Shown here: positions 3,500 through 16,028 of the stretch, piece after piece | Position numbering within the stretch: the stretch's first letter is position 1 | Layout of the letters: every line of letters begins with the position of its first letter | DNA from: a virus | Taxonomy: Duplodnaviria > Heunggongvirae > Uroviricota > Caudoviricetes | Reading direction: 5' to 3' (one strand) | DNA length: 64,000 nt | IMG/VR virus record: IMGVR_UViG_3300012346_000380 | Span: 64,001-128,000 of that record | Notes under the pieces: generated by a model | What the model was told of the DNA's origin: nothing | The model's input: the letters and a program-made list of their open reading frames with translations, nothing else | Database searches by the model: none | Program-made: the position numbers and the translations under genes

Positions 3500-5125
3500 T
3501 TATGCCTCGCAGCTTGCACATTCAAGAATATCTCTTGCGAATGATTGTGCTGAACTTTGGCTAAATTGATAATATAAAGTTTTAACGCCTTCTTCGTGTG
3601 CTGCTAAATACAATTGATTAATATCTTTAGCTGGTACACTTGGATGAATCATTAAATTTAAAGATTGTGATTGATCAATGAACTGTTGTCTTTGAGCAGC
3701 TTGTGTGATCAACTCTCTTGGTGTAATTTCAATAAATGATTTAAAAACTGCTTTAGTTGGAAAATCTAAGTGCTGAACTGAACCATCTTTCTTTAAGATT
3801 CCTTCCCAAACGTCTGTTGTATTTAAGCCATACTTTTCTAATTCTTGAATTAAGAAAGGATTCTTATAGATTGTTTTAGATTTAGCTAAATCTTTTACAA
3901 AATAATTAGATTTAATTGGCTCAATTCCCATTGAAACTTGACCATGAATAAATGAACTTGATTTTGTTGGAGCAATTGCAACTAAAGTTGTATTTGCAAA
4001 TCCCTCTCTTAAAGATGTATAACCTCTTTCGTCATGTAAAAATTTAGAAGCTGATTCAGTTTTTTCTTTAAGTGTTTTAAAGATCTGATAATTTAATTGC
4101 TTTGCTTCTAATGATTCAAATTCAATTAATTTAGATTGGAATAAAGAGTGATAACCTAATACACCTACACCCAATGCTCTGTGTTGAGATGCAAATCTAT
4201 GTGCTCTTGACATACCTGGCATATTGTAAGATTTCTTAACAAACTCATCCATCACTGCGTTTAAGAACAACGTGTAGATTTCAATAGCATCTGTGTCTTT
4301 TAATTCATCCCAATGTAATAGGTTAATAGAACCTAAACAACATACGAAAGAATTAAAAGAGTCTGTTGGCAATTGAATTTCAGAACATAAGTTTGAAGCT
4401 GTGATTTCAAGACCTAATGCTTTGTATGGTGAATTGTTGTTGGAATTATCTTTAAACATAATGTAAGGAAAACCAAACTCATTACGTCTTTGAATTACTT
4501 TAGCCCAAATTTTACGTTTTTCTGCATCTCCAGCCTTCATTTCTTCAAGCCATTTGTCTGTTACAGTAACTCCGTATTGTAAATTTTGGATAGGATTTCC
4601 TTCTGTTCCCATATCCAAAAATTCTAAAATATCATTGTGTTCTACTGGTAACCAAGCTGCACATGCTCCTCTTCTTGCTTCTGATTGTTTACACACATCA
4701 ACTGTAGTGTCATACATTCTAGCGTAGTGGACTGGTCCGTCTGCTGTTCCACCTGTTGAAATTTTAGCTCCTCTTTCTCTAATGTTTCCTAAGAAAATTG
4801 AAGTTCCACCTCCGTATTTACTCATCATTCCAATTTCTCTAGAACCATTTAAGATACTATCTAAAGTATCATCAACATTTGATCCATAACAGCTAATTGG
4901 AAGTCCTTTATCTTTTCCGAAGTTAATCCAAACTGGTGTTGAAAGGCTATAAAATCCTCTAGACATATAGTCTTCGAATTTGTTAGCAAAACCTTCAATT
5001 TTTAAATACTTTTCTGCTTTGTTAGCAATGTCCTTGATTCTTTGTTCAGGCGTTTCAGTAATGTAGCCTCTTGATAAAAATGTGCGACTGTCTTCATTTA
5101 GCCAGTAGTATTTCTTATAATCCAT
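3500..5125 (-). CDS. nrdA: Class I ribonucleotide reductase alpha subunit (short, no ATP cone)
   Basis: GLPISCYG, ASNLCSEI, CCLGSIN, AIAPTKSSS, VKTLYY, C-terminal CASCEA. Confidence 0.96.
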   Translation of the reverse strand: MDYKKYYWLNEDSRTFLSRGYITETPEQRIKDIANKAEKYLKIEGFANKFEDYMSRGFYSLSTPVWINFGKDKGLPISCYGSNVDDTLDSILNGSREIGMMSKYGGGTSIFLGNIRERGAKISTGGTADGPVHYARMYDTTVDVCKQSEARRGACAAWLPVEHNDILEFLDMGTEGNPIQNLQYGVTVTDKWLEEMKAGDAEKRKIWAKVIQRRNEFGFPYIMFKDNSNNNSPYKALGLEITASNLCSEIQLPTDSFNSFVCCLGSINLLHWDELKDTDAIEIYTLFLNAVMDEFVKKSYNMPGMSRAHRFASQHRALGVGVLGYHSLFQSKLIEFESLEAKQLNYQIFKTLKEKTESASKFLHDERGYTSLREGFANTTLVAIAPTKSSSFIHGQVSMGIEPIKSNYFVKDLAKSKTIYKNPFLIQELEKYGLNTTDVWEGILKKDGSVQHLDFPTKAVFKSFIEITPRELITQAAQRQQFIDQSQSLNLMIHPSVPAKDINQLYLAAHEEGVKTLYYQFSQSSAQSFARDILECASCEA

Positions 5126-5147: not shown

Positions 5148-6125
5148 TTAGAATAAATCGTCTTCTGTAATAGACTTGCTTTTTTTGTTATAATCGATTT
5201 GTTTTTTGTAAAAGAAATCACCTTCTTTGGTTGAAAGAATTTCTACATCGAACCATAACGTCTTTTCAATTTCTTGAAAATCTACATCAAACACAGGTTT
5301 CATACCAATTCTTTGTAATGAATTGTTAAATCTGTTTTGAATAAACTGTTGAATTGTGTTTTTTGACAAGAAGCTTAATTCGCCTTTTTCAAAGATCCAG
5401 TCTAAAATTTTGCATTCGGCAATATAAGCTTTCTTACATGCGGAATCAATTAATTGTTCAAACTCTTCGTCGAACCATTCTGGATTTTCTTCTTTGATAA
5501 TGTTAATAAGTTCTGAGCCAAAATTACCATGAATTTCTTCTTCTTTTGAAGTAGCCTCAACTACATTCGAGATACCTTTAAATAAGTTTTTCTCTTTGTT
5601 AAAGCTCATCATGATTAAAAATTGACTAAATAGACTCACGTGTTCGATGAATAAAGAAAATAATAACACTGATTTTGTGTACATCTTATTGTCTTTGCTT
5701 CTTGTGCCGTCTAAATATTTTGATAGATATGCGATTCTATCTTTAATAGCTGGAATTTCTACAACGCTTTGGAATTCTTCTTCAAGACCTAAAACTCGTA
5801 GTAATTGAGCGTATGCATCTTTGTGTCTTACTTCAGATTCGGCAAATGTCATACCAACATCTCCGATTTCTGTGATTGGCATTCTCTTATAAAGATCTGC
5901 CCAAAATGTTTTAACATTTACCTCGATTTGAGCAATAGCCAACATCGATCTTTTAATAACTTCTCTTTCTTGATCTGTGATTTTAGTTTTAAAATCATCA
6001 ATATCTGTTGTGAAATTGAATTCTGTATGGATCCAATATGAGTGTCTAATTGCATCTTTATATGCTAGTAATGAAGGGTATTCGTATGGTAAAATATTTA
6101 CTCTTTTTTGAAAAATATTGCTCAT
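5148..6125 (-). CDS. nrdB: Class I ribonucleotide reductase beta subunit (class Id-like)
   Basis: AIAQIEVNVKTFW, ESEVRH, FIEHVSLFSQF, KEEEIHG, C-terminal KSITEDDLF. Confidence 0.95.
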   Translation of the reverse strand: MSNIFQKRVNILPYEYPSLLAYKDAIRHSYWIHTEFNFTTDIDDFKTKITDQEREVIKRSMLAIAQIEVNVKTFWADLYKRMPITEIGDVGMTFAESEVRHKDAYAQLLRVLGLEEEFQSVVEIPAIKDRIAYLSKYLDGTRSKDNKMYTKSVLLFSLFIEHVSLFSQFLIMMSFNKEKNLFKGISNVVEATSKEEEIHGNFGSELINIIKEENPEWFDEEFEQLIDSACKKAYIAECKILDWIFEKGELSFLSKNTIQQFIQNRFNNSLQRIGMKPVFDVDFQEIEKTLWFDVEILSTKEGDFFYKKQIDYNKKSKSITEDDLF

Positions 6126-6180: not shown

Positions 6181-7599
6181 TTATTGAGCTGCTTTTTCAA
6201 GAGCCTTTATTTTCTTTTTAAGCTCTTCTGCTTTATGAAAATATTCATAGGACATACCCTTGTATTCCTTTCTCTGTGAATAAAGATCTGATAATATTTT
6301 TTTAAGAATAGAATCTTCATTTTTATAAACTACACCGTTTTCACAAACAATAACATTTTTATCTTTACGTCTTTCTTCTATTTTAGAAGTCTGTACCTTT
6401 TCAATGAAAGCATCTGGAGAAACATTAAACTGTCTCATAATAGATGGGTATAGCGATGCGTAGTCAAATGCACTTACTCCTTCATAAAAACCAACAATGG
6501 GTTCTTTAACAAATGCTCCAGCAAATTGACCGTCTTTTTTATTATCTTCTCTAGCTTCAGTTCCAATACGTTTACCTTCAGATGCAATTTTTCTTGCAAT
6601 CAAGGCTTCAGTTACTGCTACCGGCGAAGCTGCTTTATATAATGGCATTTTTGTAATAGATGCAAGAGTAATAAGTACATCCATTGATTTTAATTTTTTA
6701 TCAATGTAATAAACTAAGATGGAGTCAATTACGTTATAATAGATGTACTTAGTAAAGTTATCTCTGTATAAATCTTGTAATGATCCTGTGAATTTAATCT
6801 TATTAGTACCTAACACTTGGCTAGAAACGTAATCCAAAGAGTTTGACTCTTTTACTTTAACAGATCTATCATATTTGTCATATAATTGCATGTAATCTAG
6901 AATTCCCATGTGTAATGGTCTACTGTCTTCTGGATCTAATGAACCTGTTCTGGACGAACCAACTATATCGATCTGTAGATGTTTACAACGATTTACAATG
7001 TACTGCCAGTCATAGTTAATGAAGTTCCAACCAGTCATCATAGGAAACTTCGGCATAAATTTATAAACGAAAGTATAAACCATGTCATACTCTGTTTTAA
7101 ATTTAATATATTGAAAGGTCCACTCATCACCAAATTTTTTCATGTATTCGTTAGTGTCATCTTCAATCTTTTTAATTTTATCAGACTCTAAGTCTTCTAA
7201 ACCTAATACGATTACCTTTTTGTCTGGCGTAACTATAGAAAAAGCTAAGATTCTTGATTTAGCTTCTTCGGCTTTTGGAAAGCCATCGACAATTTCAGTT
7301 TCAATATCGACGAAATATGTTCTAGGTGAATTATATTCGTAAATAACTTCTTTGTCTTTTTCTGGTAAGCCATCCATAAAATAAACTAATGAAAATTTAT
7401 TAAATTGTCTAGCTTGTGAAAGTTTCACTGAACGTCCATCCCAATTTTTAAAATCTCTACTAGCACCAGCTTCTTTAGGATCACAAACATACCAATTTTT
7501 AAATTGTGTGATTGGATAACGTTTAAAATCTATAGTGCCTTCTTTATTGTAATACGAAACAATAATCTCTTTCTCTCTTTGTTCAATGTCTAATAGCAT
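6181..7599 (-). CDS. gp43A: Family B DNA polymerase, N-terminal subunit (gp43A-like: 3'-5' exonuclease, motif A, first finger helix)
   Basis: ExoI FVDIETE, ExoII GWNFINYDWQY, ExoIII YNVIDS, motif A AFDYASLYPSIM. Confidence 0.93.
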   Translation of the reverse strand: MLLDIEQREKEIIVSYYNKEGTIDFKRYPITQFKNWYVCDPKEAGASRDFKNWDGRSVKLSQARQFNKFSLVYFMDGLPEKDKEVIYEYNSPRTYFVDIETEIVDGFPKAEEAKSRILAFSIVTPDKKVIVLGLEDLESDKIKKIEDDTNEYMKKFGDEWTFQYIKFKTEYDMVYTFVYKFMPKFPMMTGWNFINYDWQYIVNRCKHLQIDIVGSSRTGSLDPEDSRPLHMGILDYMQLYDKYDRSVKVKESNSLDYVSSQVLGTNKIKFTGSLQDLYRDNFTKYIYYNVIDSILVYYIDKKLKSMDVLITLASITKMPLYKAASPVAVTEALIARKIASEGKRIGTEAREDNKKDGQFAGAFVKEPIVGFYEGVSAFDYASLYPSIMRQFNVSPDAFIEKVQTSKIEERRKDKNVIVCENGVVYKNEDSILKKILSDLYSQRKEYKGMSYEYFHKAEELKKKIKALEKAAQ

Positions 7600-7600
7600 A

Positions 7601-8068
7601 TTAATATCCGCGTTGTTGGCGTGCTTTGTTTTCAGCTGCCTTTGTGAAGTAATAGTTATATGCTGTTTTTGCGTCTAAGCCAATAGAAGCTGCGTAATTG
7701 ATAAAGAAGTGCAGAATGTCGATCCATTCCATATACAATTCTTTTTTATCGCCTTCAGAAAGATCTGCAACTTTTAAAGTGTCATACTTGGCGAAATCTT
7801 TTTTCCAGTATTTCCAAACTGCGTTACCGCTACCGTCTTTAATACCACCTAAAGCGTCTGTCATCTCGTGAATTTCATCAATCACAGCGTGTGTATTTAC
7901 ATGCCAAAAATTCATTACTTCACGGATTGTCATATCTTCAAACTTAATTCCATAAGTCTTTTCCTGCATCTCCTTTTGATGCTCCATTATATCTGCTAAA
8001 TGGGTCGTAGATTCATCGTAGAAGTCATTAACTTCTAAATCTTTACATTCGTTGTCTATGTTTGCCAT
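7601..8068 (-). CDS. Dimeric all-alpha dUTPase / gp56-like dCTPase
   Basis: EIHEMTDAL, EWIDILHFF, C-terminal ENKARQQRGY. Confidence 0.8.
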   Translation of the reverse strand: MANIDNECKDLEVNDFYDESTTHLADIMEHQKEMQEKTYGIKFEDMTIREVMNFWHVNTHAVIDEIHEMTDALGGIKDGSGNAVWKYWKKDFAKYDTLKVADLSEGDKKELYMEWIDILHFFINYAASIGLDAKTAYNYYFTKAAENKARQQRGY

Positions 8069-8083
8069 GTTCTTATTTTTCAG

Positions 8084-8112
8084 GTTATATTTAAAAAGGC
8101 TTAATTGTTTCT
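8084..8112 (-). promoter_or_regulatory. Putative early/middle promoter AGAAAC-N17-TATAAC
   Basis: Recurrent motif; precedes the dUTPase and polymerase N-terminal genes. Confidence 0.65.
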
Positions 8113-8118
8113 ATTGAA

Positions 8119-9225
8119 TTATTTAAAAAATGTATTGGTTTTCAAATCTGACAAAGCAGATGCTATAACTTGATGCATATCATAGTACTTGTATTCTGCT
8201 AATCTTCCACCAAAAAATATATTTTTTATATTACTTGCAGATTGTTTATATTTTTTAAAAATAGATGCGTTGCGTTCGTCATTGACTGGATAATAAGGTT
8301 CAACGCCTCTTTTATAGTCTACTGGATATTCCCAAGAAACTACTGTATCTTTTTGATTTTTAAAATTAAAATGCTTATGCTCTATAATTCTTGTATATGG
8401 AATAGTCGCATCTGTATAATTTACAACAGCGTTACCTTGAAAGTCTTTATTTTCTATGGTCTTTGTTACAAAATTGACTGTCTTATATTCTAAATCACCA
8501 TACTTGTAATTAAAATAGGCATCTATTGGTCCTGTGTAAATTATTTTATCTGCTTTAGAATTCCAATAATCTCTGTCTTTTAGATAATCTTGATTTAATT
8601 CTACGTCTATACCTTCTAACATTTTTTCAAATAGACTAGTGTAGCCATCGATTGGAATGCCCTGATATTTGTCGTTAAAATAATTATTATCCCATGTAAA
8701 ACGTACTGGCAATCTTTTAATTATCGAAGTTGGTAAAAGCTTAGCTGATTTCTTCCACTGTTTTTCAGTGTAACCTTTGATTAGCTTTTCATAAATATCT
8801 GTGCCTACTAAAGAAAGTGCTTGCTCTTCTAAATTTGTAATTGGACCAGTGTATCTTTGTGAATCTATAATCTTTTTGGCTTCCTCTGGTGTTTTAGTTC
8901 CCCATAATTTGTAAAAAGTCCACATTGAAAATGGAAGAGAATATATCTCATCTTTATAATTAGCTATTGGTGAATTTTTAAAATTGTTAAATTCTCCAAA
9001 TTGTTGGATCCATTGCCATATAGCTTTATCATTTGTGTGAAATATATGAGCTCCGTATTGGTGAACGTCGATGTCATTTACTTTTTTAGTATATGCATTT
9101 CCACCGATGTGATTTCTTTTATCAATCACGAGTACTTTCTTGCCTAAACGGCTCAGTTCGTATGCACAAACTGAGCCGTAAAAACCTGCGCCGACTATTA
9201 AATAATCGTAATTCTTATTAAGCAT
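8119..9225 (-). CDS. glf: UDP-galactopyranose mutase
   Basis: FAD-binding IVGAGFYG, HIGGNAY, YGAHIFHT, YTRIIEHKHF, PYYPVND, GRLAEYKYYDMHQVI. Confidence 0.95.
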   Translation of the reverse strand: MLNKNYDYLIVGAGFYGSVCAYELSRLGKKVLVIDKRNHIGGNAYTKKVNDIDVHQYGAHIFHTNDKAIWQWIQQFGEFNNFKNSPIANYKDEIYSLPFSMWTFYKLWGTKTPEEAKKIIDSQRYTGPITNLEEQALSLVGTDIYEKLIKGYTEKQWKKSAKLLPTSIIKRLPVRFTWDNNYFNDKYQGIPIDGYTSLFEKMLEGIDVELNQDYLKDRDYWNSKADKIIYTGPIDAYFNYKYGDLEYKTVNFVTKTIENKDFQGNAVVNYTDATIPYTRIIEHKHFNFKNQKDTVVSWEYPVDYKRGVEPYYPVNDERNASIFKKYKQSASNIKNIFFGGRLAEYKYYDMHQVIASALSDLKTNTFFK

Positions 9226-10366
9226 CTTGTAATCTTGCTTCTAAATTTTTAAAATGATTTAAATTATCGATAAGTCTCGGCTTAGCATGTTCAAAGTCCG
9301 GATCATTAATAATTTGATTAATTAATTTAACGCCTTCTTCAACTCTATTAGTCCAAAAACAAGCAACTGATAATTCATCATTGACATATTTACCATAACA
9401 ATTAGATGTTACAAATAATAAATATTTACTTTGTGCATATTTTAAAGAGATGTCTTTGGCTTTTTTCAAATAATCATAAGCCAATTCATGATTTCCTATT
9501 TTATTTAAATAAGTACCTAAATGAAAATATGGTTCAGCTCTATCTGGTGAAATTTCTATAGCAGCATTCATTTCATCAATGATTAAATTTGGATCTGAAT
9601 CTGGTATAGCCATTAAACATCTTGAAATTCTCATTTGAGCTTCAAATCTTTCTTCACTCCAAGTATCTTTTAATCTTGTATAAAGCCTATTCCATTGTAA
9701 ACCTTCTATCATCATGTTAGAATCCATATAACTCTGTGCACAGTAGAAGGCTGATCTGTGATTTAATCCATCTGGATCATCTACCAAAGTATCGAAGAAT
9801 TGCTTTTTCAATCTTTCAGCATCGTAAAAATATTTCTTAGGATCAAATGCTCTTGATCCAACTGGATCGCATATAACCCAACCTCTTGTTGATAAATCTC
9901 CTACTGTGTAATGAGGTCTTTCAATACATTTAATTATCGTATGCGCTGTTCCACAGAATTTCCAATGCACTCTATTATTATAAATGACTGTTGCTTTGTA
10001 AGTTGCAGTTCCACGTTTCATAGTCATGTGATATGCATCTTCACCAGCATCGTCATTAGTAAAACTAAAATCACCTGCTAAAATATCATCAGCGTCTAAA
10101 TGCAATACGTAATCTGTTTTACCATGTACATATTCCATCATCATGTTTTTATTTTTGTCAAAACCGAGCCATTCATCGTTATGAATTTCTCCTGGAATTC
10201 CAGTACGATCCATAAACTCTTGGACAATTTCTAACGTTCTATCAGTAGAACCGTTATCGGCAACTACTAGATAATCAATATATGGTGCAACTGCATCAAG
10301 AACTTGTCCTATGACGTGTTCTTCATTTTTACACATAGTTGCAAATGCTAATGTTGGTCTGTTCAT
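9218..10366 (-). CDS. GT2-family glycosyltransferase with C-terminal TPR repeats
   Basis: Start re-assigned to MNRPTL (10366); MCKNEE, VADNGSTDRT, LHLDADD (DxD), TPR-like PDRAEPYFHLG; 8-nt overlap with glf. Confidence 0.85.
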   Translation of the reverse strand: MNRPTLAFATMCKNEEHVIGQVLDAVAPYIDYLVVADNGSTDRTLEIVQEFMDRTGIPGEIHNDEWLGFDKNKNMMMEYVHGKTDYVLHLDADDILAGDFSFTNDDAGEDAYHMTMKRGTATYKATVIYNNRVHWKFCGTAHTIIKCIERPHYTVGDLSTRGWVICDPVGSRAFDPKKYFYDAERLKKQFFDTLVDDPDGLNHRSAFYCAQSYMDSNMMIEGLQWNRLYTRLKDTWSEERFEAQMRISRCLMAIPDSDPNLIIDEMNAAIEISPDRAEPYFHLGTYLNKIGNHELAYDYLKKAKDISLKYAQSKYLLFVTSNCYGKYVNDELSVACFWTNRVEEGVKLINQIINDPDFEHAKPRLIDNLNHFKNLEARLQDA

Positions 10367-10371
10367 AATTA

Positions 10372-11265
10372 TTATTTTACGTCTACGATTTCGCCCCATT
10401 CTCTTTGGGCATTGATTGATTGTTTAGTGTCTTCATTTTCAGGCTTAGGATTACCTCCTACATTCCAGAACCAAGCTCCAGGATTTCCATTTTTAAGCAT
10501 TAATTCCCATGCTTTAGCGTCATAATTCAATGCACTTGGAAATGGCGGTTCAAACTCAGCTGCTACGTTTTGGCTAAATTCTTTTGGATGTGACCAAATA
10601 GTTGCTCTACCTCTTTCACCATCTTTGATGTTTCTAGCTACTGCAACTCCATTAAATTCTGCATTAGGCCATGCAATTTGCAAAGCTCTACCTAAAACAC
10701 CAGTTGAAATAGCATGCCAAACTTCTTTAGGTTCACCGTGTACTTGTGCCATATCATAAGCTACTTTAACTGCAGCTGCTGTAACTAATTCGTGTCTTAA
10801 ACCTAAAGGTATAAAAAAGCCATTGTTTTCTTTGGCCCAATCAGCTGCAATTTTATTAAGATTTGGCATTGCTGCAATTCTACGGAATTTCATATCTGCG
10901 CCTCTTTCAATACAAATGGCTTGATGATCTGAAATTTCTTTTTGACTTGGACTAAAAAGAACTAGTTTTTTATTGTATTTCTCAGCTAAATAAGCTAATG
11001 AAATTCCAGCAAAACCATATCTTGGCTGTACATAAACTAAAGTATCTGATGGACAACTTTGAACTAAAATATCACCAAAGCGACACTTAGAACCAAAGCC
11101 CATTAAATCTTCTCTAACTACATTAAATCCTTCGTGTTCTTTTACAATAGGCGCTGGAAATGGATCTTTCCAATCTCCTGCTAATTCTAACCAAGCATCT
11201 CTATTTGGGTAAGCTAAATTTAAGTCTTGATTAAAACTACTTTTTGTATGATTATTGTGTGACAT
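10372..11265 (-). CDS. PLP-dependent enzyme (fold type II, ACC-deaminase/cysteine-synthase-like)
   Basis: VVREDLMGFGSKCRF (Schiff-base Lys region), AISTGVLG phosphate loop, LNYDAKAW, FWNVGG. Confidence 0.75.
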   Translation of the reverse strand: MSHNNHTKSSFNQDLNLAYPNRDAWLELAGDWKDPFPAPIVKEHEGFNVVREDLMGFGSKCRFGDILVQSCPSDTLVYVQPRYGFAGISLAYLAEKYNKKLVLFSPSQKEISDHQAICIERGADMKFRRIAAMPNLNKIAADWAKENNGFFIPLGLRHELVTAAAVKVAYDMAQVHGEPKEVWHAISTGVLGRALQIAWPNAEFNGVAVARNIKDGERGRATIWSHPKEFSQNVAAEFEPPFPSALNYDAKAWELMLKNGNPGAWFWNVGGNPKPENEDTKQSINAQREWGEIVDVK

Positions 11266-12318
11266 TTAATCTTTTTTAAGTGAAAATGATTCTGGAAATA
11301 TCCAAGTATAAGGTATTCTTTTTGTTGGTGATTTAACACCATGTGAGATTGCAATGTGTTTATAAAAGAAACATGTTTTATCTTCTATGTTTAACCATTT
11401 TTGGCTTGTCATTGGATTCTTAGGATGATTAACTAAAGTTTCCATTTGTTCTAACCACAACTCAGCATATTTATTCTCGGCAATAAATTCGCCGTTTTTA
11501 CCGATAGTGTACTTAACTTTACCATTAACATTAACACCGCTAAAAACTTGTTGCATACCATCAAAGTGTCCTGTTCCACCATATAAAGGTGTTTCTGGAT
11601 CTATTAAATGTGGATATGCCATGGCTAAATATCTAGCTGCATTTTTACATGGATATAAAGGACTTCTAAAGTTTTGATCCTCTTTAAAATACTTCTCCAT
11701 GATTTTAGCAAATTCCATCATCGTATAAGGTCTGTCTAAATTCTCTAGAACATGTGACATTTTTTCTGCCGCTCTTTTTGGACCCCACAGAAGCCACTCC
11801 TTAACATCTGTGCCCTTTGGATAGTATATCTGAAACAGATCATTGCGTGCGTGTCTATTATCTTTAAAATGTTTCTTAAGAGCTTCTTCACCATCATTAA
11901 TTAACATTGTTAAAGTTCCCCAATGCTCATTTGTAAATGAAAACACCAAAGTATACCAAAGTCTTTTCATTGGATCAGTCACATCTTTCATTAAATCACA
12001 AAAAGGATGTTCATGCCAGTGTAATCTGTGTGAAAATATCTGATAATCTTCAGCTAATAATTTGTCTTGTCTTTTATCAAAGGCTTCGCAAAATTCAAAG
12101 AATTTATCAAAACGTTCTTCTTGCGTCCAATCTTTCATCCAAGATTCAATAGGCTTGCCATTTTTCATTTTAACATCAGCCGTATTTGGATATTCGATGT
12201 TTGTATAATGAACGCCTTCGTCTTCAAACAAAGATTCTGCTTGCTGATATTTCTTTTTTGCTTTTGGTAATTCGCAAGCATCTGGTCTTATAAAATCTTC
12301 TGCTAATAAAGTATTCAT
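11266..12318 (-). CDS. aGPT-Pplase / amino-acid:DNA transferase-like protein, paralog 2
   Basis: YPCKNAARYLAMAYP, YGGTGHFDGM and NIEDKTCFFYKH follow the order of the family's helix, Gly-loop and ExxxC motifs. Confidence 0.55.
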   Translation of the reverse strand: MNTLLAEDFIRPDACELPKAKKKYQQAESLFEDEGVHYTNIEYPNTADVKMKNGKPIESWMKDWTQEERFDKFFEFCEAFDKRQDKLLAEDYQIFSHRLHWHEHPFCDLMKDVTDPMKRLWYTLVFSFTNEHWGTLTMLINDGEEALKKHFKDNRHARNDLFQIYYPKGTDVKEWLLWGPKRAAEKMSHVLENLDRPYTMMEFAKIMEKYFKEDQNFRSPLYPCKNAARYLAMAYPHLIDPETPLYGGTGHFDGMQQVFSGVNVNGKVKYTIGKNGEFIAENKYAELWLEQMETLVNHPKNPMTSQKWLNIEDKTCFFYKHIAISHGVKSPTKRIPYTWIFPESFSLKKD

Positions 12319-13541
12319 TATTTGTATATTTTTTTAACCATTTCTTTATATTGATCTACTGTTAGGCCAGCTTCTACTAAAATTTTATCATCCGATGGGT
12401 GACTAGTCATTCCATTAAACGTCTTAACTATACCTAAATCTAACATGGCTTTTTGTCTGCCAAATGGATGATCTTTTATTGTACTACTATTCCAGACTGT
12501 GTCCATGTCTACGTGGTTGTAATCTTTTCCTGGCCTTAAGTAGTTTTCGATCCATCTAATATAATCACAGGCCACGTCTTCTGCGTTATATGGCAGCGAT
12601 CCTGTATCTGCATAGATCTTAGTCATAACAGCATCCAAGAATTCTTCTCCTTTTTTATTACCTTTACCATTTTCAGGATCTGCTAAATAACCAATACATT
12701 CTACTGCGTTAGTTCCATAGTAAAACATAGATTCTCTAACAACATATTCTGGGTACCAATCTGCGATGTCTGCAATAACTGCAGCATATTGAAATCTATA
12801 AGCTCTTAGCCCATTATCATAGTTCCATTTAAAAAGCCATTCACCTAATTCTCTAAGTTGTTTCTTTTCTCCAGTTGTTAAATATATTGCTAATTCTCTA
12901 GCTAATCTTGGTGCAAATTCACAAAGATAATAATCTCCACCTCTTTTGTAAGTGTATTTTACTTCATTAGAAAATCCTGTCATACCAACAAATAAATCTT
13001 CTGAATTAGTTTGATTTTCTGGTGGCTTTGGAAAGGCTGGAAATTGATAACCAACTGAAGTATAAAATGGATATTGGTGTGATTTAATCACTTCGCACAT
13101 ATCTTCTATCGTATCACATTCATGTAAATGAAATAAGATTGTGTTGTGATAACCGGAAGGTTTAGTTGCATAATTAATTCCAGAACCCGTAACTCTGTGC
13201 AGAATAAAAAGATAAAGCCATTCTTCTAATCCAAATGTTTTCTGCTTTCCTGTCCAGTTTTTAGCAACTTCTTCTCGCTGTGGTGTGTAAATGCCATTTT
13301 TCATTTTATCCCAATAAGGATGCTCTGGTGTCCAACCATAAAAAATATCGTTTACAATTTGAGAAAAACCTGCATATTTTCTTTCAACAACATCATAAAG
13401 TTCTATGTGCTCCATTAAAGAATCGCCCATATTACTTTCCATATATCCAACTGTTCCTAAATTACAAAGATCTTGCTGCTTTTGTGCAAGATCAAAGTAT
13501 CTTATAAACTCGTCGTAATATCTTGTAGTTTGAATTTTCAT
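12318..13541 (-). CDS. aGPT-Pplase / amino-acid:DNA transferase-like protein, paralog 1
   Basis: FQYAAVIADIADWYP, YYGTNAVECI, NAEDVACDYIRW; next to a PLP enzyme as in known thymidine hypermodification loci. Confidence 0.6.
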   Translation of the reverse strand: MKIQTTRYYDEFIRYFDLAQKQQDLCNLGTVGYMESNMGDSLMEHIELYDVVERKYAGFSQIVNDIFYGWTPEHPYWDKMKNGIYTPQREEVAKNWTGKQKTFGLEEWLYLFILHRVTGSGINYATKPSGYHNTILFHLHECDTIEDMCEVIKSHQYPFYTSVGYQFPAFPKPPENQTNSEDLFVGMTGFSNEVKYTYKRGGDYYLCEFAPRLARELAIYLTTGEKKQLRELGEWLFKWNYDNGLRAYRFQYAAVIADIADWYPEYVVRESMFYYGTNAVECIGYLADPENGKGNKKGEEFLDAVMTKIYADTGSLPYNAEDVACDYIRWIENYLRPGKDYNHVDMDTVWNSSTIKDHPFGRQKAMLDLGIVKTFNGMTSHPSDDKILVEAGLTVDQYKEMVKKIYK

Positions 13542-13795
13542 TATGCGTTATGCTTTTCAAAAATATCGTAATAGTCTCCTTCGGTTTTTACACCGACAGT
13601 ACGCTCTAATTCTGTGTTTGATTCATCTACTAAAATAACAGTAGGCACACTTCTAATTCCAAATTGTGCTGATAACTCTTCGTTCTCATCTACATTAATT
13701 TTTTCAACAGTGTACTTTTGGCCAACCTTTTCCATAATTGGTCCTAACATTCTACAAGGTCCACACCAAGGTGCAGAAAAATATAAATATTTCAT
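13541..13795 (-). CDS. Thioredoxin
   Basis: Start re-assigned to MKYLYF; WCGPC active site, GIRSVPT. Confidence 0.92.
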   Translation of the reverse strand: MKYLYFSAPWCGPCRMLGPIMEKVGQKYTVEKINVDENEELSAQFGIRSVPTVILVDESNTELERTVGVKTEGDYYDIFEKHNA

Positions 13796-13812
13796 AAATT
13801 TATGTTTGCGTC

Positions 13813-14892
13813 TTAAAATAAAGACATTGTTTTCTTTTCTAATCTTTTGTTTGGGCAATTTGCTGTCATGTCCCATCGATAATACTCTCTAGAAATATGA
13901 ACAGATTTTGGTTGTTCCATCACATCAAACGTTAATTCACCTTTATCATTAAAATAAACATCCGAATGTTTGTAAACTTTCCAATTATTTCTTTTACACA
14001 TTTCATCAATATAGTTATTGATTTCTTTAGACAATTGAGTACGTTCTAACCAAGAGCCGTAAAATGGAGTGTCTTTATAATAACCTGTTTTTGGTAAAAC
14101 TCTTGATTCATTTTCGATTGGTAAAACATGGATCAATTCAATATTACTAATTCCGTTTTCTTGTAACGCTTTAAGCTGTTGCTCATAATTTTTCATCATG
14201 ATTTCAACTGCATTTTTAGGATTAGCTTGTCTCATCAAGTGATGTCTAACATCAATATTACCCATATAACACGTTAATGTTTTTATCCATGGATAAATGT
14301 AAGAATCTAATCCTCTTTTAAGAGCACCGTGCATTGTTAAACCATCGTGTCTTTGACACATATAACCAGCTTGATACATTCCAAATGAATGACTATCGCC
14401 AAAACAAAGCTTGTCTGTTTTTTCAATATGATCTATTTTAGGAATGTCATTAGCACAAATACCTTTGATCAAATCAATGTCTTGTTCTAAAGTCTTAAAC
14501 AAATCTGTACCTGTTTTTAATCGTTGTTCAATTAAAGCACCGATACATGGCATCTCATGATGTAAACTGTACATCTTAACTTTACTCTTAATGCGAATTA
14601 TTTGATTGTATAAATCATCATTAGCTCCTCCAAAAATATTAAAGTTGCCTTTGAATTCCATACCATGATCGATTAAGATAATGTCATAGTTATTCCAATC
14701 AGTTTCGTTAGATGTGATAACATCTACGCTTTCAAATCCAGCATTTGTCAATTGATTGGCAATCATAAAACACCACGCAGATTTATGCGAACTAATCTTA
14801 GGGCTTAATTTACCAACAAGAGCTGAAATACCAATCTTAGCTGATTTGTCAGTAACGTAGTCTGTAAAATAACTAAACTCTTGATTATTCAT
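13813..14892 (-). CDS. Two-domain protein: T4 beta-glucosyltransferase-like N-domain plus SGNH-hydrolase-like C-domain
   Basis: Start re-assigned to MNNQEF; N-domain VDVI...DWNNYDIILI...FNIFGG...KSKVKMYSL; C-domain FGDSHS, YMGNIDVRHH, SVHI. Confidence 0.55.
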   Translation of the reverse strand: MNNQEFSYFTDYVTDKSAKIGISALVGKLSPKISSHKSAWCFMIANQLTNAGFESVDVITSNETDWNNYDIILIDHGMEFKGNFNIFGGANDDLYNQIIRIKSKVKMYSLHHEMPCIGALIEQRLKTGTDLFKTLEQDIDLIKGICANDIPKIDHIEKTDKLCFGDSHSFGMYQAGYMCQRHDGLTMHGALKRGLDSYIYPWIKTLTCYMGNIDVRHHLMRQANPKNAVEIMMKNYEQQLKALQENGISNIELIHVLPIENESRVLPKTGYYKDTPFYGSWLERTQLSKEINNYIDEMCKRNNWKVYKHSDVYFNDKGELTFDVMEQPKSVHISREYYRWDMTANCPNKRLEKKTMSLF

Positions 14893-15184
14893 TCGTAACT
14901 GGTTTTTCAGTGTCTTTATAACCGAATTTTTCAACATAATTATCTAGAGCACCTAAGTAAGCTACTGCATCTAATAAATTATCTTGTTTGTAGTTGTATG
15001 AGTGACGACTTAATTTTAATGCAACTAAAGCTGCATACATGTCACTACCAGAAAAATCTTTACCAGTCATACCGCTGGCAATTTGTGCGGCTCTGCGCAT
15101 ACCTTCTTCAAATGGACCGTATTGACGTTCTTTTTCTTCAGAGCGTTCATTAATAATCTTGTTTGCTTGGTCTAATATGTTCAT
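14885..15184 (-). CDS. DUF6378-like small all-alpha protein
   Basis: RQYGPFE...LVALKLSR...DNLLDAVAY pattern. Confidence 0.65.
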   Translation of the reverse strand: MNILDQANKIINERSEEKERQYGPFEEGMRRAAQIASGMTGKDFSGSDMYAALVALKLSRHSYNYKQDNLLDAVAYLGALDNYVEKFGYKDTEKPVTNE

Positions 15185-15200
15185 AGATTATGTTTTAGAT

Positions 15201-15229
15201 ATTATATTTATACGAATTAATTTGTTTCA
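15201..15229 (-). promoter_or_regulatory. Putative early/middle promoter TGAAAC-N17-TATAAT heading the modification cluster
   Basis: Exact motif and spacing match to the other four copies. Confidence 0.7.
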
Positions 15230-15480
15230 GTTTTTGGCCAACCACCTAATGGCATAATTTTACCGTTATCGATTGGACCATTTTCATTCACCCAATCTTC
15301 TCTACCCGAGGCAACTCCCATAACTTTAATAAAGCCACATGTAAATGCTTTTACTTTATCTATGGCCATTTGAGCATCTTCAGCCATTACGCATGCAACA
15401 AAATCAGACTTATTGCTCCAGTTTGGAACTAATAACATTTCATCTTTGTAATGTAAATAATAAATCGTGTATGGTTTCAT
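15217..15480 (-). CDS. Hypothetical protein (87 aa)
   Basis: Start re-assigned to MKPYTIYY, preceded by an A-rich leader; the longer track ORF runs through intergenic DNA. Confidence 0.6.
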   Translation of the reverse strand: MKPYTIYYLHYKDEMLLVPNWSNKSDFVACVMAEDAQMAIDKVKAFTCGFIKVMGVASGREDWVNENGPIDNGKIMPLGGWPKTETN

Positions 15481-15734: not shown

Positions 15735-15765
15735 AAAAAAGTCTAACCAACGGTTAGACTTTTTT
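15735..15765. terminator. Bidirectional intrinsic terminator
   Basis: AAAAAAGTCTAACC-AAC-GGTTAGACTTTTTT between convergent genes. Confidence 0.8.
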
Positions 15766-15998: not shown

Positions 15999-16028
15999 AA
16001 AAAACTCAGCTTTTATACTGAGTTTTTT
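15999..16028 (-). terminator. Intrinsic terminator
   Basis: AAAAAACTCAG...CTGAGTTTTTT inverted repeat after the 148-aa gene. Confidence 0.75.

What the first reader, a model, noticed from the sequence alone, without database searches (positions are those of the whole stretch)
7601..15229. Candidate new DNA hypermodification locus combining amino-acid-transfer, acyl and sugar modules
Seen: one tightly coupled minus-strand unit (several genes overlap) under a promoter at 15201. Order: DUF6378-like, BGT-like/SGNH fusion, thioredoxin, two aGPT-Pplase-like paralogs, PLP enzyme, GT2-TPR, UDP-galactopyranose mutase, then dUTPase/dCTPase and the polymerase. Known: aGPT-Pplase/amino-acid:DNA transferases with PLP enzymes build hypermodified thymidines in ViI- and M6-type phages, and T4 BGT glycosylates hydroxymethylcytosine. 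Inference: this combination could make a base modification not yet described (aminoacylated then PLP-processed, acylated and/or galactofuranosylated) that shields DNA from restriction or CRISPR. Caveat: no dUMP/dCMP hydroxymethylase or 5-hmdU DNA kinase is in this window.
Basis: partly seen in the sequence, partly recalled or inferred. Interest (0 to 1): 0.85.

Follow-up and report, generated by a model that had tools for sequence, protein, structure and literature searches.

The report
Kinase-less hydroxymethylcytosine DNA hypermodification cassette
A 256-kb uncultured T4-like phage carries, next to its DNA polymerase, a tight gene cassette that most likely decorates hydroxymethylcytosine in its own DNA by an undescribed route, using relatives of the enzymes that hang amino acids on thymine but without their usual DNA kinase; in this phage alone a sugar module is added.

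Summary
ORF4 (12318-13541) has the fold of the solved 5-PmdU glycinyltransferase PaMx11 gp46, its best PDB match. ORF5 is a distant paralog. The PLP enzyme belongs to the same PHROG as the M6 gp52 decarboxylase. ORF2 joins a T4 beta-glucosyltransferase-like N-domain to an SGNH domain with intact catalytic residues. UGM, GT2-TPR, thioredoxin and a T4 gp56-like dCTPase are confirmed.

The target is probably not thymine. The complete genome has no 5-hmdU DNA kinase, no dUMP hydroxymethylase and no TET/JBP. It does have a gp42-type dCMP hydroxymethylase, gp56, a dCMP deaminase and a normal ThyA, which is the T4 set for hydroxymethylcytosine DNA.

In 30 well-flanked IMG/VR loci ORF2 accompanies ORF4 30/30 and the PLP enzyme 26/30. 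A kinase is never nearby. In distant relatives ORF2 and ORF4 are fused. In one clade the module sits between gp42 and uvsX, where T4 has beta-gt.

GT2-TPR, UGM and thioredoxin occur only in near-identical kin. The GT2 resembles protein glycosyltransferases, so galactofuranosylated DNA is only a possibility.

The scan had already reached the "kinase-less hmC cassette" reading on other genomes. My tests agree independently. The chemistry is inferred, not shown.

The parts
15201..15230 (-). Promoter-like sites upstream of the first gene: a sigma-70-like site (CTGAAA-18-TATAAT) and a T4 late-type TATAAATA at 15212-15205.
   Evidence: These are consensus matches only and neither motif class is enriched over shuffles. 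Terminator-like hairpins lie upstream at 15735-15765 and 15999-16028.
14885..15184 (-). DUF6378 protein (99 aa), the conserved first gene of the cassette in the split-polymerase clade.
   Evidence: PF19905 at 5.6e-11. It lies next to ORF2 in 22 of 30 well-flanked related loci (L018 and L019). Its function is unknown.
13813..14892 (-). ORF2: a T4 beta-glucosyltransferase-like N-domain (residues ~33-129) joined to an SGNH domain (~172-363). The likely start is M16 (14892); the longest ORF runs to 14937.
   Evidence: AF2 pLDDT 88.6. SGNH fold: VIA Z 13.4 and Foldseek 1e-5. Ser182 (GDSHS), Gly199, Asn227 (GNID) and His347 are invariant. hhalign to a BGT family alignment gives 91%, E 1e-6, with controls at 2.4% or less. 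Homologs are 357-360 aa. It is fused N-terminally to ORF4-like domains in P0271, P0284, P0295, P0318, P0338, P0348 and P0351.
13541..13795 (-). Thioredoxin (84 aa counted from M28, WCGPC motif). It is a lineage-specific insertion.
   Evidence: PF00085 at 7e-17; sequence. It is present only in the 96-99% identical kin (3 of 30 loci). It may serve the adjacent ribonucleotide reductase rather than the pathway.
12318..13541 (-). ORF4: a Pplase/AADT-superfamily transferase-like protein (407 aa) with an invariant E321-D-x-x-C325 motif.
   Evidence: AF2 pLDDT 92.4. Its best PDB match is 8z2n_B, PaMx11 gp46/PUGT: Z 10.3, rmsd 3.8, 209 residues aligned. BFVD: a 60%-identical protein named AADT-domain, followed by Pplase1 and HMUDK_hel entries. 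Atlas features point to the same families. Invariant residues are listed.
11266..12318 (-). ORF5: a diverged paralog of ORF4 (350 aa) with E312-D-K-T-C316. It is an optional member of the cassette.
   Evidence: hhalign of A2 against A3: 91.6%, E 8e-7, across the C-terminal catalytic region. It is present in 15 of 30 loci.
10372..11265 (-). Fold-type II PLP enzyme of the M6 gp52 (DNA-linked amino-acid decarboxylase) family, with Lys60 in a GSK motif.
   Evidence: phrog_7093 at 1.7e-40; M6 gp52 hits the same PHROG at 3.6e-159. PALP at 7e-5. Sequence. Present in 26 of 30 loci. The function of gp52 is from PMC8989533.
9218..10399 (-). GT2 (GT-A) glycosyltransferase with C-terminal TPR repeats. It is a lineage-specific insertion.
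   Evidence: PF00535 at 3.7e-12. Nearest solved catalytic domains are GmaR (1e-5) and SunS (2e-3), and residues 272-334 match TPR proteins. Present only in near-identical kin (3 of 30).
8119..9225 (-). UDP-galactopyranose mutase, which makes UDP-galactofuranose. It is a lineage-specific insertion.
   Evidence: PF03275 at 5e-79 and TIGR00031 at 432.8 bits against a cut-off of 303.75. Homologs occur in 90 phage records, including 22 Rhizobium and 5 Agrobacterium phages. A precedent in a proposed DNA-glycosylation pathway is in PMC13326640.
7601..8068 (-). All-alpha dNTP pyrophosphatase, a homolog of T4 gp56 dCTPase/dUTPase.
   Evidence: BLASTP to T4 gp56: 1e-17, 29% identity over 111 aa. It hits the same three PHROGs as gp56. 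It lies next to the cassette in 22 of 30 loci.
6181..7599 (-). Context: the N-terminal half of a split family-B DNA polymerase, immediately downstream.
   Evidence: PF03104 and PF00136. The C-terminal half is at 930-2126.

Best explanation
This is a post-replicative DNA base-hypermodification cassette that acts on 5-hydroxymethylcytosine.

Shown or strongly supported:

- The phage has the T4-type precursor set. It comprises a gp56-like dCTPase inside the cassette, and a gp42-type dCMP hydroxymethylase, a dCMP deaminase and a normal ThyA elsewhere in the genome.
- ORF4 and ORF5 belong to the Pplase/AADT structural superfamily. That family uses a catalytic Cys to eliminate a leaving group from the C5-methylene of a flipped pyrimidine and then adds an amine or hydroxyl nucleophile.
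- The PLP enzyme is of the M6 gp52 / ViI gp226 decarboxylase type.
- ORF2 (BGT-like DNA-acceptor domain plus a catalytically intact SGNH domain) is the obligate partner of ORF4.

Inferred pathway:

1. ORF2 binds hydroxymethylcytosine in DNA through its BGT-like half.
2. Its SGNH half esterifies the 5-CH2OH. This supplies the leaving group that the 5-hmdU DNA kinase supplies in thymidine systems.
3. ORF4, and ORF5 with a second donor or sequence context, replace that group with an amino acid bound through its side chain.
4. The PLP enzyme decarboxylates the bound amino acid to a cationic aminoalkyl group, as in ViI.

GT2-TPR plus UGM form a recent add-on. It may put galactofuranose on the new side chain, but it may equally serve protein glycosylation. 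The likely purpose of the whole cassette is protection of the phage DNA from restriction and other nucleases.
For: Transferase fold:
- ORF4's best PDB match is PaMx11 gp46, ranked above the HhH glycosylases.
- Its BFVD hits carry AADT, Pplase1 and HMUDK_hel names.
- ORF5 is linked to the ORF4 family at 91.6%.
- Both proteins keep an E-x3-C motif spaced like PUGT E243/C247 and 15599 Pplase2 E222/C226 (PMC11472151, PMC13458397).

PLP enzyme:
- It is in the same PHROG as M6 gp52, and the Schiff-base Lys is present (PMC8989533).

ORF2:
- The SGNH fold has invariant Ser, Gly, Asn and His.
- The N-domain is homologous to the T4 BGT N-domain, with clean controls.
- ORF2::ORF4 fusions occur in seven distant relatives.
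- ORF2 lies within 5 kb of ORF4 in 30 of 30 well-flanked loci.

No kinase:
- PF18748, PF18723, PF18724 and PF18746 find nothing in the complete genome.
- An M6 gp54-like protein is found in 0 of 80 loci.

Hydroxymethylcytosine supply:
- The extra ThyA homolog is best matched by T4 dCMP hydroxymethylase at 3e-19.
- It has the D-C-D-D signature, as do all 18 gp42-like genes next to the module in relatives (criteria from PMC13326640).
- The relatives' gp42 is 56-58% identical to T4 gp42.
- A gp56 homolog, a dCMP deaminase and a canonical ThyA are present.

Synteny:
- One clade has gp42 - dCMP deaminase - ORF4 - (ORF5) - PLP - ORF2 - UvsX. This is the slot that beta-gt holds in T4.
Against: - No chemistry was measured, and the phage is uncultured.
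- ORF4 and ORF5 do not match the Pfam ADDT, HMUDK_hel or Pplase3 HMMs.
- hhalign of the ORF4 family against M6 gp51 finds nothing.
- VIA Z 10.3 lies in the range where helical proteins can match by arrangement alone (note).
- The E-x3-C correspondence to PUGT is by motif spacing. It was not checked residue by residue.
- No SGNH enzyme is known to act on DNA, and no acyl donor is identified.
- ORF4 keeps the Glu that binds the metal contacting phosphate in Pplase2. That would fit a phosphate leaving group and an unrecognised kinase.
- The structure search of ORF2 did not list BGT.
- In this genome gp42 lies about 90 kb from the cassette.
- A dCMP deaminase could in principle convert hm-dCMP to hm-dUMP, so a uracil-derived target is not excluded.
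Confidence: 0.55

Rival explanations
1. This is the first reader's version: a ViI/M6-type thymidine hypermodification. 5-hmdU in DNA is phosphorylated by a kinase encoded elsewhere or taken from the host. The two transferases then add an amino acid, and the product is decarboxylated, acylated and glycosylated.
For: The transferase superfamily and the PLP family are so far characterised only on 5-hmdU (PMC8989533, PMC11472151, PMC13458397). A dCMP deaminase is present and could feed a uracil route. ORF4 keeps the metal-binding Glu of Pplase2.
Against: The complete genome has no HMUDK (PF18748, E up to 10), no M6 gp54-like protein and no Tet_JBP. One ThyA homolog is canonical. The other carries Asp at the N177 position, which marks dCMP specificity. 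A gp56 dCTPase is in the cassette. No kinase is found in 80 related loci.
Confidence: 0.1
2. The core (ORF2, ORF4, ORF5, PLP enzyme) modifies DNA, but GT2-TPR plus UGM are unrelated passengers. They glycosylate a protein or peptide, or make a galactofuranose glycan (virion protein, host envelope). The thioredoxin serves the neighbouring ribonucleotide reductase.
For: GT2, UGM and Trx occur only in 96-99% identical kin, and the 74-80% relatives lack them. The nearest solved catalytic domains of the GT2 are GmaR (a flagellin glycosyltransferase) and SunS (a peptide S-glycosyltransferase). It also carries TPR repeats, an architecture typical of protein glycosyltransferases. RNR genes lie 1.5-4.6 kb downstream of the cassette.
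Against: The two genes are inserted inside the cassette and overlap their neighbours: 28 nt with the PLP gene and 8 nt with each other. The same slot holds other tailoring genes, such as a LOG-like gene, in relatives. A phage UGM is part of the proposed DNA-glycosylation pathway of Rhizobium phage RL38J1, and GT-A enzymes do glycosylate phage DNA (PMC13326640; bioRxiv 10.1101/2023.12.21.572611).
Confidence: 0.45
3. ORF2 is not the activating enzyme. It is a late tailoring enzyme, an esterase or an N- or O-acyltransferase acting on the appended group. In that case ORF4 uses unactivated 5-hmC, a leaving group made by a host enzyme, or a group already present on the incorporated nucleotide.
For: SGNH enzymes are mostly esterases, and some are acyltransferases (PatB and OatA appear among the matches). 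PaMx11 ends its pathway with an acetylation (PMC8989533). No acyl donor is evident. An earlier first-reader note (e1-5414074) proposes the same role.
Against: ORF2 is present even where the PLP enzyme and ORF5 are absent (L093 and L096). It accompanies ORF4 in 30 of 30 loci, more often than any tailoring gene. It is fused N-terminally to ORF4-like domains, which mirrors the kinase-helical domain fusion of SP10 gp186 (PMC8989533).
Confidence: 0.2
4. The cassette does not act on DNA bases at all. It would act on free nucleotides, RNA or a small metabolite, and it merely sits among replication genes.
For: No direct evidence links it to DNA. The Pfam DNA-transferase models do not match, and the fold matches are of middling strength.
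Against: ORF4's best structural match is a DNA-bound base-flipping transferase, followed by DNA glycosylases. ORF2 carries the DNA-acceptor half of BGT. The cassette is consistently linked to gp42, gp56, polB and uvsX.
Confidence: 0.08

Closest known systems
Thymidine hypermodification pathways of phages M6, ViI, PaMx11, PhiW-14, SP10 and SH-Ab 15599 (5-HMUDK kinase, Pplase2/AADT/DADT transferase, PLP decarboxylase and tailoring enzymes)
   Same: The transferase has the helical, HhH-containing fold and an E-x3-C motif. The PLP enzyme is in the same PHROG as M6 gp52. The cassette is modular, with a variable tailoring slot, and lies next to nucleotide-precursor genes. The activating partner can be fused to the transferase-like domain, as in SP10 gp186.
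   Different: There is no 5-hmdU DNA kinase anywhere in the genome or in related loci. The invariant partner is instead a BGT-N/SGNH protein. The precursor genes are those for hydroxymethylcytosine (gp42-type, gp56), not a dUMP hydroxymethylase. The transferases fall outside the Pfam ADDT, Pplase and HMUDK_hel models. There is no radical SAM isomerase and no flavin lyase.
T4 hydroxymethylcytosine glucosylation (gp56, gp42, alpha- and beta-glucosyltransferases)
   Same: The precursor logic is the same: a dCTPase and a dCMP hydroxymethylase with the identical D-C-D-D active-site signature. In one related clade the module occupies the gp42-uvsX slot that beta-gt holds in T4. The N-domain of ORF2 is homologous to the DNA-acceptor domain of BGT.
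   Different: No complete BGT or AGT is present. The UDP-glucose-binding half of BGT is replaced by an SGNH domain. The group added is expected to be amino-acid-derived rather than glucose.
Glycosylated 5-hydroxycytosine pathways (RB69, DLP3, Rhizobium phage RL38J1; PMC13326640)
   Same: A ThyA homolog makes the modified dCMP. RL38J1 encodes a UDP-galactopyranose mutase in its proposed DNA-glycosylation gene set.
   Different: The ThyA homolog here keeps Asp at the D169 position, whereas 5hoC synthases have Asn. It is therefore predicted to be a hydroxymethylase. The glycosyltransferase here is a GT2-TPR protein of the GmaR/SunS kind, not one of the DNA glycosyltransferases described there.
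SGNH/GDSL esterases and O-acyltransferases (PatB, OatA, sialate O-acetylesterases)
   Same: The C-terminal half of ORF2 has the fold and all four catalytic-block residues.
   Different: None of these enzymes is known to act on nucleic acid. Here the domain is fused to a BGT-like DNA-acceptor domain, and in some relatives to a Pplase-like transferase.

Membership tests
Pplase2 / amino acid:DNA transferase (Pfam PF18724 ADDT; PUGT, DADT) | Match to the family's sequence profile | tested here: not met
   ORF4 and ORF5 get no Pfam hit at E up to 10. PF18724, PF18723 and PF18746 find nothing in the genome. Only 1 of 67 ORF4 relatives hits ADDT, at 1e-3. hhalign against M6 gp51 finds nothing.
Pplase2 / amino acid:DNA transferase (Pfam PF18724 ADDT; PUGT, DADT) | Helical HhH-containing fold of PUGT (8Z2M, 8Z2N) | tested here: met
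   The ORF4 model (pLDDT 92.4) has 8z2n_B as its best PDB match: Z 10.3, rmsd 3.8, 209 residues aligned, ranked above the HhH glycosylases at Z 8.1 or less. BFVD hits carry AADT, Pplase1 and HMUDK_hel names. ORF5 was tested only through hhalign to the ORF4 family, at 91.6%.
Pplase2 / amino acid:DNA transferase (Pfam PF18724 ADDT; PUGT, DADT) | Catalytic Cys with a metal-binding Glu four residues upstream | tested here: inconclusive
   E321 and C325 are invariant in 67 ORF4 relatives, and E312 and C316 are invariant in ORF5 relatives. The spacing matches PUGT E243/C247 and 15599 E222/C226 (papers). Structural equivalence of these residues was not checked.
Pplase2 / amino acid:DNA transferase (Pfam PF18724 ADDT; PUGT, DADT) | Works downstream of a 5-hmdU DNA kinase (PF18748) on 5-PmdU | tested here: not met
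   PF18748 gives no match at E up to 10 in the complete genome. An M6 gp54-like protein is found in 0 of 80 related loci.
T4 beta-glucosyltransferase (GT63) | N-terminal DNA-acceptor Rossmann-like domain | tested here: met
   hhalign of ORF2 residues 33-129 against BGT 1-101: 91.1%, E 1e-6. Column-shuffled, reversed and unrelated controls give 2.4% or less. The fold searches did not list BGT, so the support comes from sequence profiles only.
T4 beta-glucosyltransferase (GT63) | C-terminal UDP-glucose-binding domain | tested here: not met
   The C-terminal half of ORF2 is an SGNH fold. phrog_7922 finds nothing in the genome.
SGNH/GDSL hydrolase-acyltransferase superfamily | The fold, plus Ser (block I), Gly (II), Asn (III) and His (V) | tested here: met
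   VIA Z 13.4 to 4rsh_A and Foldseek 1e-5 to 3p94. S182, G199, N227 and H347 are invariant in 23 sequences. The Pfam Lipase_GDSL score of 16.7 bits is below the cut-off.
M6 gp52 / ViI gp226 PLP-dependent decarboxylases of DNA-linked amino acids | Family membership and the Schiff-base lysine | tested here: met
   phrog_7093 at 1.7e-40, against 3.6e-159 for M6 gp52. The REDL...GSK60 motif aligns by eye with M6 REDL...SK. Decarboxylase activity was not testable.
dCMP hydroxymethylase (T4 gp42 type) | Catalytic Cys, Asp at the ThyA N177 position, an acidic residue at L143 and Asp kept at D169 | tested here: met
   D145, C148, D171 and D179 (T4 numbering) are all conserved in the genome's 301-aa ThyA homolog and in 18 gp42-like genes of related loci. 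The best PDB match is T4 dCH at 3e-19. The criteria are from PMC13326640.
T4 gp56 dCTPase/dUTPase | Sequence homology to gp56 | tested here: met
   BLASTP 1e-17. Both proteins hit phrog_173, phrog_18650 and phrog_12184. Substrate specificity was not testable.
UDP-galactopyranose mutase (Glf) | Equivalog-level profile match | tested here: met
   TIGR00031 at 432.8 bits against a cut-off of 303.75, and PF03275 at 5e-79.

The most novel reading that the evidence does not exclude
A widespread group of aquatic T4-like phages makes an undescribed hypermodified cytosine. An SGNH-domain enzyme that borrowed the base-flipping half of beta-glucosyltransferase esterifies 5-hydroxymethylcytosine in DNA. 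It would be the first DNA-base acyltransferase, and it replaces the nucleobase kinase. Pplase-like enzymes then swap the ester for an amino acid, which is decarboxylated. In this phage the resulting side chain is further galactofuranosylated.
Probability: 0.2. Interest if true: 0.9.

Novelty: new variant of a known kind. Interest (0 to 1): 0.72.

Why it matters
All characterised Pplase/AADT pathways start from 5-hmdU and need a dedicated nucleobase kinase.

This cassette ties the same transferase superfamily and PLP decarboxylase to the hydroxymethylcytosine pathway. It replaces the kinase with a BGT-N/SGNH protein. It occurs on at least 570 IMG/VR contigs.

- It predicts a new class of cytosine hypermodification in abundant uncultured aquatic phages.
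- It predicts a new way of activating a hydroxymethyl nucleobase.
- It would give a new activity to the SGNH fold.

Such bases matter for evasion of restriction, CRISPR and glycosylase defences. They can make phage DNA hard to sequence or amplify. Their enzymes can also serve as tools for site-selective DNA derivatisation.

The prediction can be tested directly by heterologous expression on hmC-containing DNA.

Tried and rejected
- Megablast of the region and tblastn of ORF4 against 50,697 phage records found nothing. No cultured relative was available.
- BLASTP of ORF4 against ORF5, and hhalign of the two shallow alignments, were not significant. The link appeared only with the deeper ORF4 alignment.
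- PDB sequence searches with ORF4, ORF5, their profiles and the ORF2 profile gave nothing useful.
- Foldseek of ORF4 against the PDB gave only E > 1. VIA-align was needed.
- hhalign of the ORF4 family against the single M6 gp51 sequence found nothing.
- T4 bgt as a single sequence against the ORF2 alignment gave only 30%. A 7-sequence BGT alignment was needed.
- Fold searches of ORF2 (pdb_via_wide, afdb_swissprot) were filled by SGNH and generic alpha/beta matches and did not list BGT.
- phrog_800, the PHROG of M6 gp54, hits only a generic 128-aa AAA_33 kinase near the RNA-repair genes. It also rings in all 14 control genomes, so it is not specific.
- The other P-loop proteins in the genome are replication or recombination ATPases, or AAA_33/Zeta-type kinases.
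- Complex prediction on ORF2 plus ORF4 returned no verdict, with a score of 0.00.
- The promoter and TATAAATA counts are not above chance.
- DUF6378 has no PDB relative by sequence.
- I considered a 5-hydroxycytosine route. I rejected it because the D169N signature is absent.

Full report
**Setting.** The window is bases 64001-128000 of a complete 256,444-bp virus record with direct terminal repeats. It has about 31% G+C, and nearly all genes lie on the minus strand. It is a T4-like phage with a split family-B polymerase. Megablast of the region and tblastn of its central protein found no cultured phage relative.

**Observation.** The ORF list gives a packed minus-strand run of ten genes.

| Coordinates | Product | Evidence |
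|---|---|---|
| 14885-15184 | DUF6378 | PF19905, 5.6e-11 |
| 13813-14937 | ORF2 | see below |
| 13541-13876 | thioredoxin | 7e-17 |
| 12318-13541 | ORF4 | see below |
| 11266-12318 | ORF5 | see below |
| 10372-11265 | PLP enzyme | see below |
| 9218-10399 | GT2-TPR | |
| 8119-9225 | UDP-galactopyranose mutase | TIGR00031, 433 bits vs cut-off 304 |
| 7601-8068 | gp56-like dCTPase | see below |
| 6181-7599 | PolB N-terminal half | |

Homolog lengths and a WCGPC motif suggest that ORF2 starts at M16 and the thioredoxin at M28. This removes two of the larger overlaps. The unit still has no gap above 50 nt.

A sigma-70-like site (15230-15201) and a T4 late-type TATAAATA (15212-15205) precede the first gene. 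Neither motif class is more frequent than in shuffled sequence. The promoter is therefore plausible but not shown.

**The two "Pplase-like" proteins.** Neither ORF4 nor ORF5 matches any Pfam, NCBIfam or PHROG model. The Pfam models HMUDK_hel, ADDT and aGPT-Pplase3 find nothing in the genome.

- Language-model features pointed to exactly those families for both proteins, so I tested the lead.
- An exhaustive profile search gave 167 relatives of ORF4. A 67-sequence alignment folded with pLDDT 92.4.
- Foldseek against the PDB was weak. VIA-align ranked PaMx11 gp46/PUGT first, at Z 10.3, rmsd 3.8 Å and 209 aligned residues. PUGT is the solved 5-PmdU glycinyltransferase. It stood ahead of the archaeal 8-oxoguanine glycosylases at Z 8.1 or less.
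- That order mirrors what the PUGT authors reported for their own structure (PMC11472151).
- In BFVD the top hit is a 60%-identical uncultured-phage protein named "amino acid:DNA transferase domain-containing". It is followed by Pplase1 entries and the helical domains of the PhiW-14 and SP10 kinases.
- ORF5 is unrelated to ORF4 by BLASTP. Its family aligns to the deep ORF4 profile at 91.6% probability, E 8e-7, over the C-terminal 129 columns.
- Both families keep an invariant Glu-x3-Cys: E321/C325 in ORF4 and E312/C316 in ORF5. The spacing equals the metal-binding Glu and catalytic Cys of PUGT (E243/C247) and of the 15599 enzyme (E222/C226) (PMC11472151, PMC13458397).
- I did not verify residue equivalence structurally. 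hhalign of the ORF4 family against the single M6 gp51 sequence found nothing.

They are therefore members of the structural superfamily but lie outside the curated sequence families.

**The PLP enzyme.** It hits phrog_7093 at 1.7e-40. M6 gp52, the decarboxylase shown to act on DNA-linked Cα-glycinylthymidine, hits the same PHROG at 3.6e-159 (PMC8989533). The REDL…GSK60 segment keeps the Schiff-base lysine.

**ORF2.**
- The model has pLDDT 88.6. Residues ~172-363 form an SGNH fold. Foldseek gives 1e-5 to 3p94 and VIA gives Z 13.4 to 4rsh. The peptidoglycan O-acetyltransferases PatB and OatA are among the matches.
- Ser182 (GDSHS), Gly199, Asn227 (GNID) and His347 are invariant in 23 sequences.
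T4 BGT as a single sequence gave only 30%.
- A 7-sequence BGT alignment taken from phage records gave 91.1%, E 1e-6, aligning ORF2 33-129 with BGT 1-101.
- Twenty-five column-shuffled BGT alignments gave at most 0.8%. The reversed alignment gave 0.3%, and three unrelated families gave at most 2.4%.
- Fold searches did not list BGT. I could not fold the domain alone.

**Fusions and co-occurrence.**
- Seven distant ORF4 relatives of 640-790 aa carry an ORF2-like domain N-terminal to the ORF4-like domain, with the same GDSHS, GNID(V/I)RHH and (K/Q)S(V/I)H motifs.
- At least 570 IMG/VR contigs encode ORF4 relatives.
- I examined the 30 of the best 80 loci that have at least 5 kb on both sides of ORF4. 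Counts of genes within 5 kb are in the table below.
- No homolog of the M6 gp54 kinase was found in any of the 80 loci.
- Some loci hold only ORF4 and ORF2 (L093), or ORF2, ORF4 and ORF5 without the PLP enzyme (L096).
- An 80%-identical relative has DUF6378-ORF2-ORF4-PLP-gp56-PolB and nothing else.
- A 74% relative has a LOG-like gene in the slot where this phage has GT2 and UGM.

| Gene within 5 kb of ORF4 | Loci (of 30) |
|---|---|
| ORF2 | 30 |
| PLP enzyme | 26 |
| DUF6378 | 22 |
| gp56 | 22 |
| ORF5 | 15 |
| LOG-like | 4 |
| GT2, UGM, thioredoxin | 3 (all 96-99% identical kin) |

**Which base?**
- The complete genome has no 5-hmdU DNA kinase. PF18748, the family of M6 gp54, gives no hit at E up to 10, and phmmer with gp54 finds nothing.
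- It has no Tet_JBP and no complete BGT.
- It has two ThyA homologs. One is canonical and runs across the record ends. The other is 301 aa, and its best solved relative is T4 dCMP hydroxymethylase (3e-19).
- By the criteria summarised in PMC13326640, the 301-aa protein has an acidic residue at E. coli L143, keeps Asp at D169 and has Asp at N177. An acidic residue at L143 marks a hydroxymethyl product. Asn at D169 marks 5-hydroxycytosine synthases. Asp at N177 marks dCMP specificity.
- The same D-C-D-D pattern as T4 gp42 holds for all 18 gp42-like genes next to the module in related loci. Those genes are 56-58% identical to T4 gp42.
- The 155-aa protein that ends the cassette is a T4 gp56 homolog (BLASTP 1e-17, same three PHROGs).
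- A dCMP deaminase is also present.

This is the T4 toolkit for replacing C by 5-hmC while keeping T.

In one related clade the order is polB … gp42 - dCMP deaminase - ORF4 - (ORF5) - PLP - ORF2 - uvsX - gp41. T4 has 43 - imm - 42 - beta-gt - segA - uvsX - 40 - 41. The module therefore occupies the beta-gt slot.

**Mechanism (inferred).** In Pplase2 enzymes the Cys activates the flipped pyrimidine. The C5-CH2-O-phosphate leaves, and an amine or hydroxyl adds to the exocyclic methylene (PMC8989533, PMC13458397). Nothing in that chemistry requires uracil rather than cytosine, but it does need a leaving group.

The only invariant partner here is ORF2. It is sometimes fused to the transferase, in the arrangement that SP10 gp186 shows for kinase plus helical domain. 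My best guess is that ORF2 uses its BGT-like half to present hmC and its SGNH half to esterify the hydroxymethyl group. ORF4 would then displace the ester with an amino acid.

The cassette has a gp52/gp226-type decarboxylase but no radical SAM isomerase. The amino acid is therefore probably attached through its side chain, which leaves the α-amine free as in ViI O-serinylthymidine. It would then be decarboxylated to an aminoalkyl group. ORF5 would add a second donor or sequence specificity.

Weak points:
- No SGNH enzyme is known to act on DNA.
- No acyl donor is identified.
- ORF4 keeps the Glu that holds the phosphate-contacting metal in Pplase2.

**The sugar module.** The UGM is certain. 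The glycosyltransferase is a GT-A enzyme whose nearest solved catalytic domains are GmaR (1e-5) and SunS (2e-3). It has TPR repeats at 272-334. This is the architecture of protein and peptide glycosyltransferases.

Together with the thioredoxin, these genes are confined to near-identical kin. The thioredoxin may simply serve the RNR genes that lie 1.5-4.6 kb downstream.

Three things favour a DNA role:
- The genes are inserted inside the cassette and overlap their neighbours.
- The same slot holds other tailoring genes in relatives.
- A phage UGM belongs to the proposed DNA-glycosylation pathway of Rhizobium phage RL38J1. UGM homologs occur in 22 Rhizobium and 5 Agrobacterium phage records (PMC13326640).

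I rate a DNA target at roughly one in three.

**Known or new.** Full-text searches found no paper that links SGNH enzymes to DNA hypermodification, or Pplase-type enzymes to the hydroxymethylcytosine pathway.

Within this scan, follow-up agents had already called related cassettes in two other genomes a [quoted passage not shown] (e1-5366197 and e1-5362697). I reached the same reading from my own tests before seeing those notes.

What this work adds:
- controlled support for the BGT-like N-domain;
- the ORF2::ORF4 fusions;
- the co-occurrence counts;
- the finding that GT2-TPR, UGM and thioredoxin are an add-on peculiar to this phage lineage.

**Verdict.** This is a new variant of a known kind of system. 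It is widespread and experimentally tractable, and its chemistry is still unproven.

Noticed in passing
window 6181-7599 and 930-2126 (minus strand): The family-B DNA polymerase is split into an exonuclease/N-terminal half (472 aa) and a C-terminal half (398 aa; PF00136 positions 154-238). Both ribonucleotide reductase subunit genes (5148-6125 and 3500-5125) and a 249-aa ORF lie between the halves. Relatives L018 and L019 share this layout.
   Followed up: partly
L004 (G000:162869-166510), outside the window: The gp42-like dCMP hydroxymethylase gene (301 aa, with a ~70-aa C-terminal extension relative to T4 gp42) lies between a ClpX/ClpB-like AAA_2 ATPase (415 aa) and a ClpP protease (228 aa). 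The phage therefore encodes its own Clp protease pair.
   Followed up: no
L002/L003 (G000:6-524 and 255882-256442): [quoted passage not shown] This is consistent with the terminal repeat or circular permutation of the assembly.
   Followed up: no
window 15735-15765 and 15999-16028: Two strong A-run/T-run hairpins (14 and 11-12 pairs) look like bidirectional intrinsic terminators. They lie just upstream of the cassette and flank an 80-aa ORF.
   Followed up: no
L019:12345-13016: In a 74% relative, a LOG/lysine-decarboxylase-like (LDcluster4) gene sits between ORF5 and the PLP gene. This is the slot where this phage has GT2 and UGM. It is found in 4 of 30 loci.
   Followed up: partly
P0256 (494 aa) and alignment A3: One ORF4 relative carries a different, unassigned ~130-aa N-terminal extension in place of the ORF2-like domain. 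One member of the 67 gave a weak MGDG_synth (GT-B) Pfam hit at 8e-4.
   Followed up: no
(phage records): UGM homologs occur in 19 Aeromonas phage records as well as in Rhizobium and Agrobacterium phages. I did not look at their gene context or at any link to DNA glycosylation.
   Followed up: no
L021 (G000:6570-6956) and L022 (G000:196667-197386): Two small AAA_33/Zeta-type P-loop kinases are encoded elsewhere in the genome. Neither matches the 5-hmdU DNA kinase family, but I did not experimentally or structurally exclude them as nucleobase kinases.
   Followed up: partly
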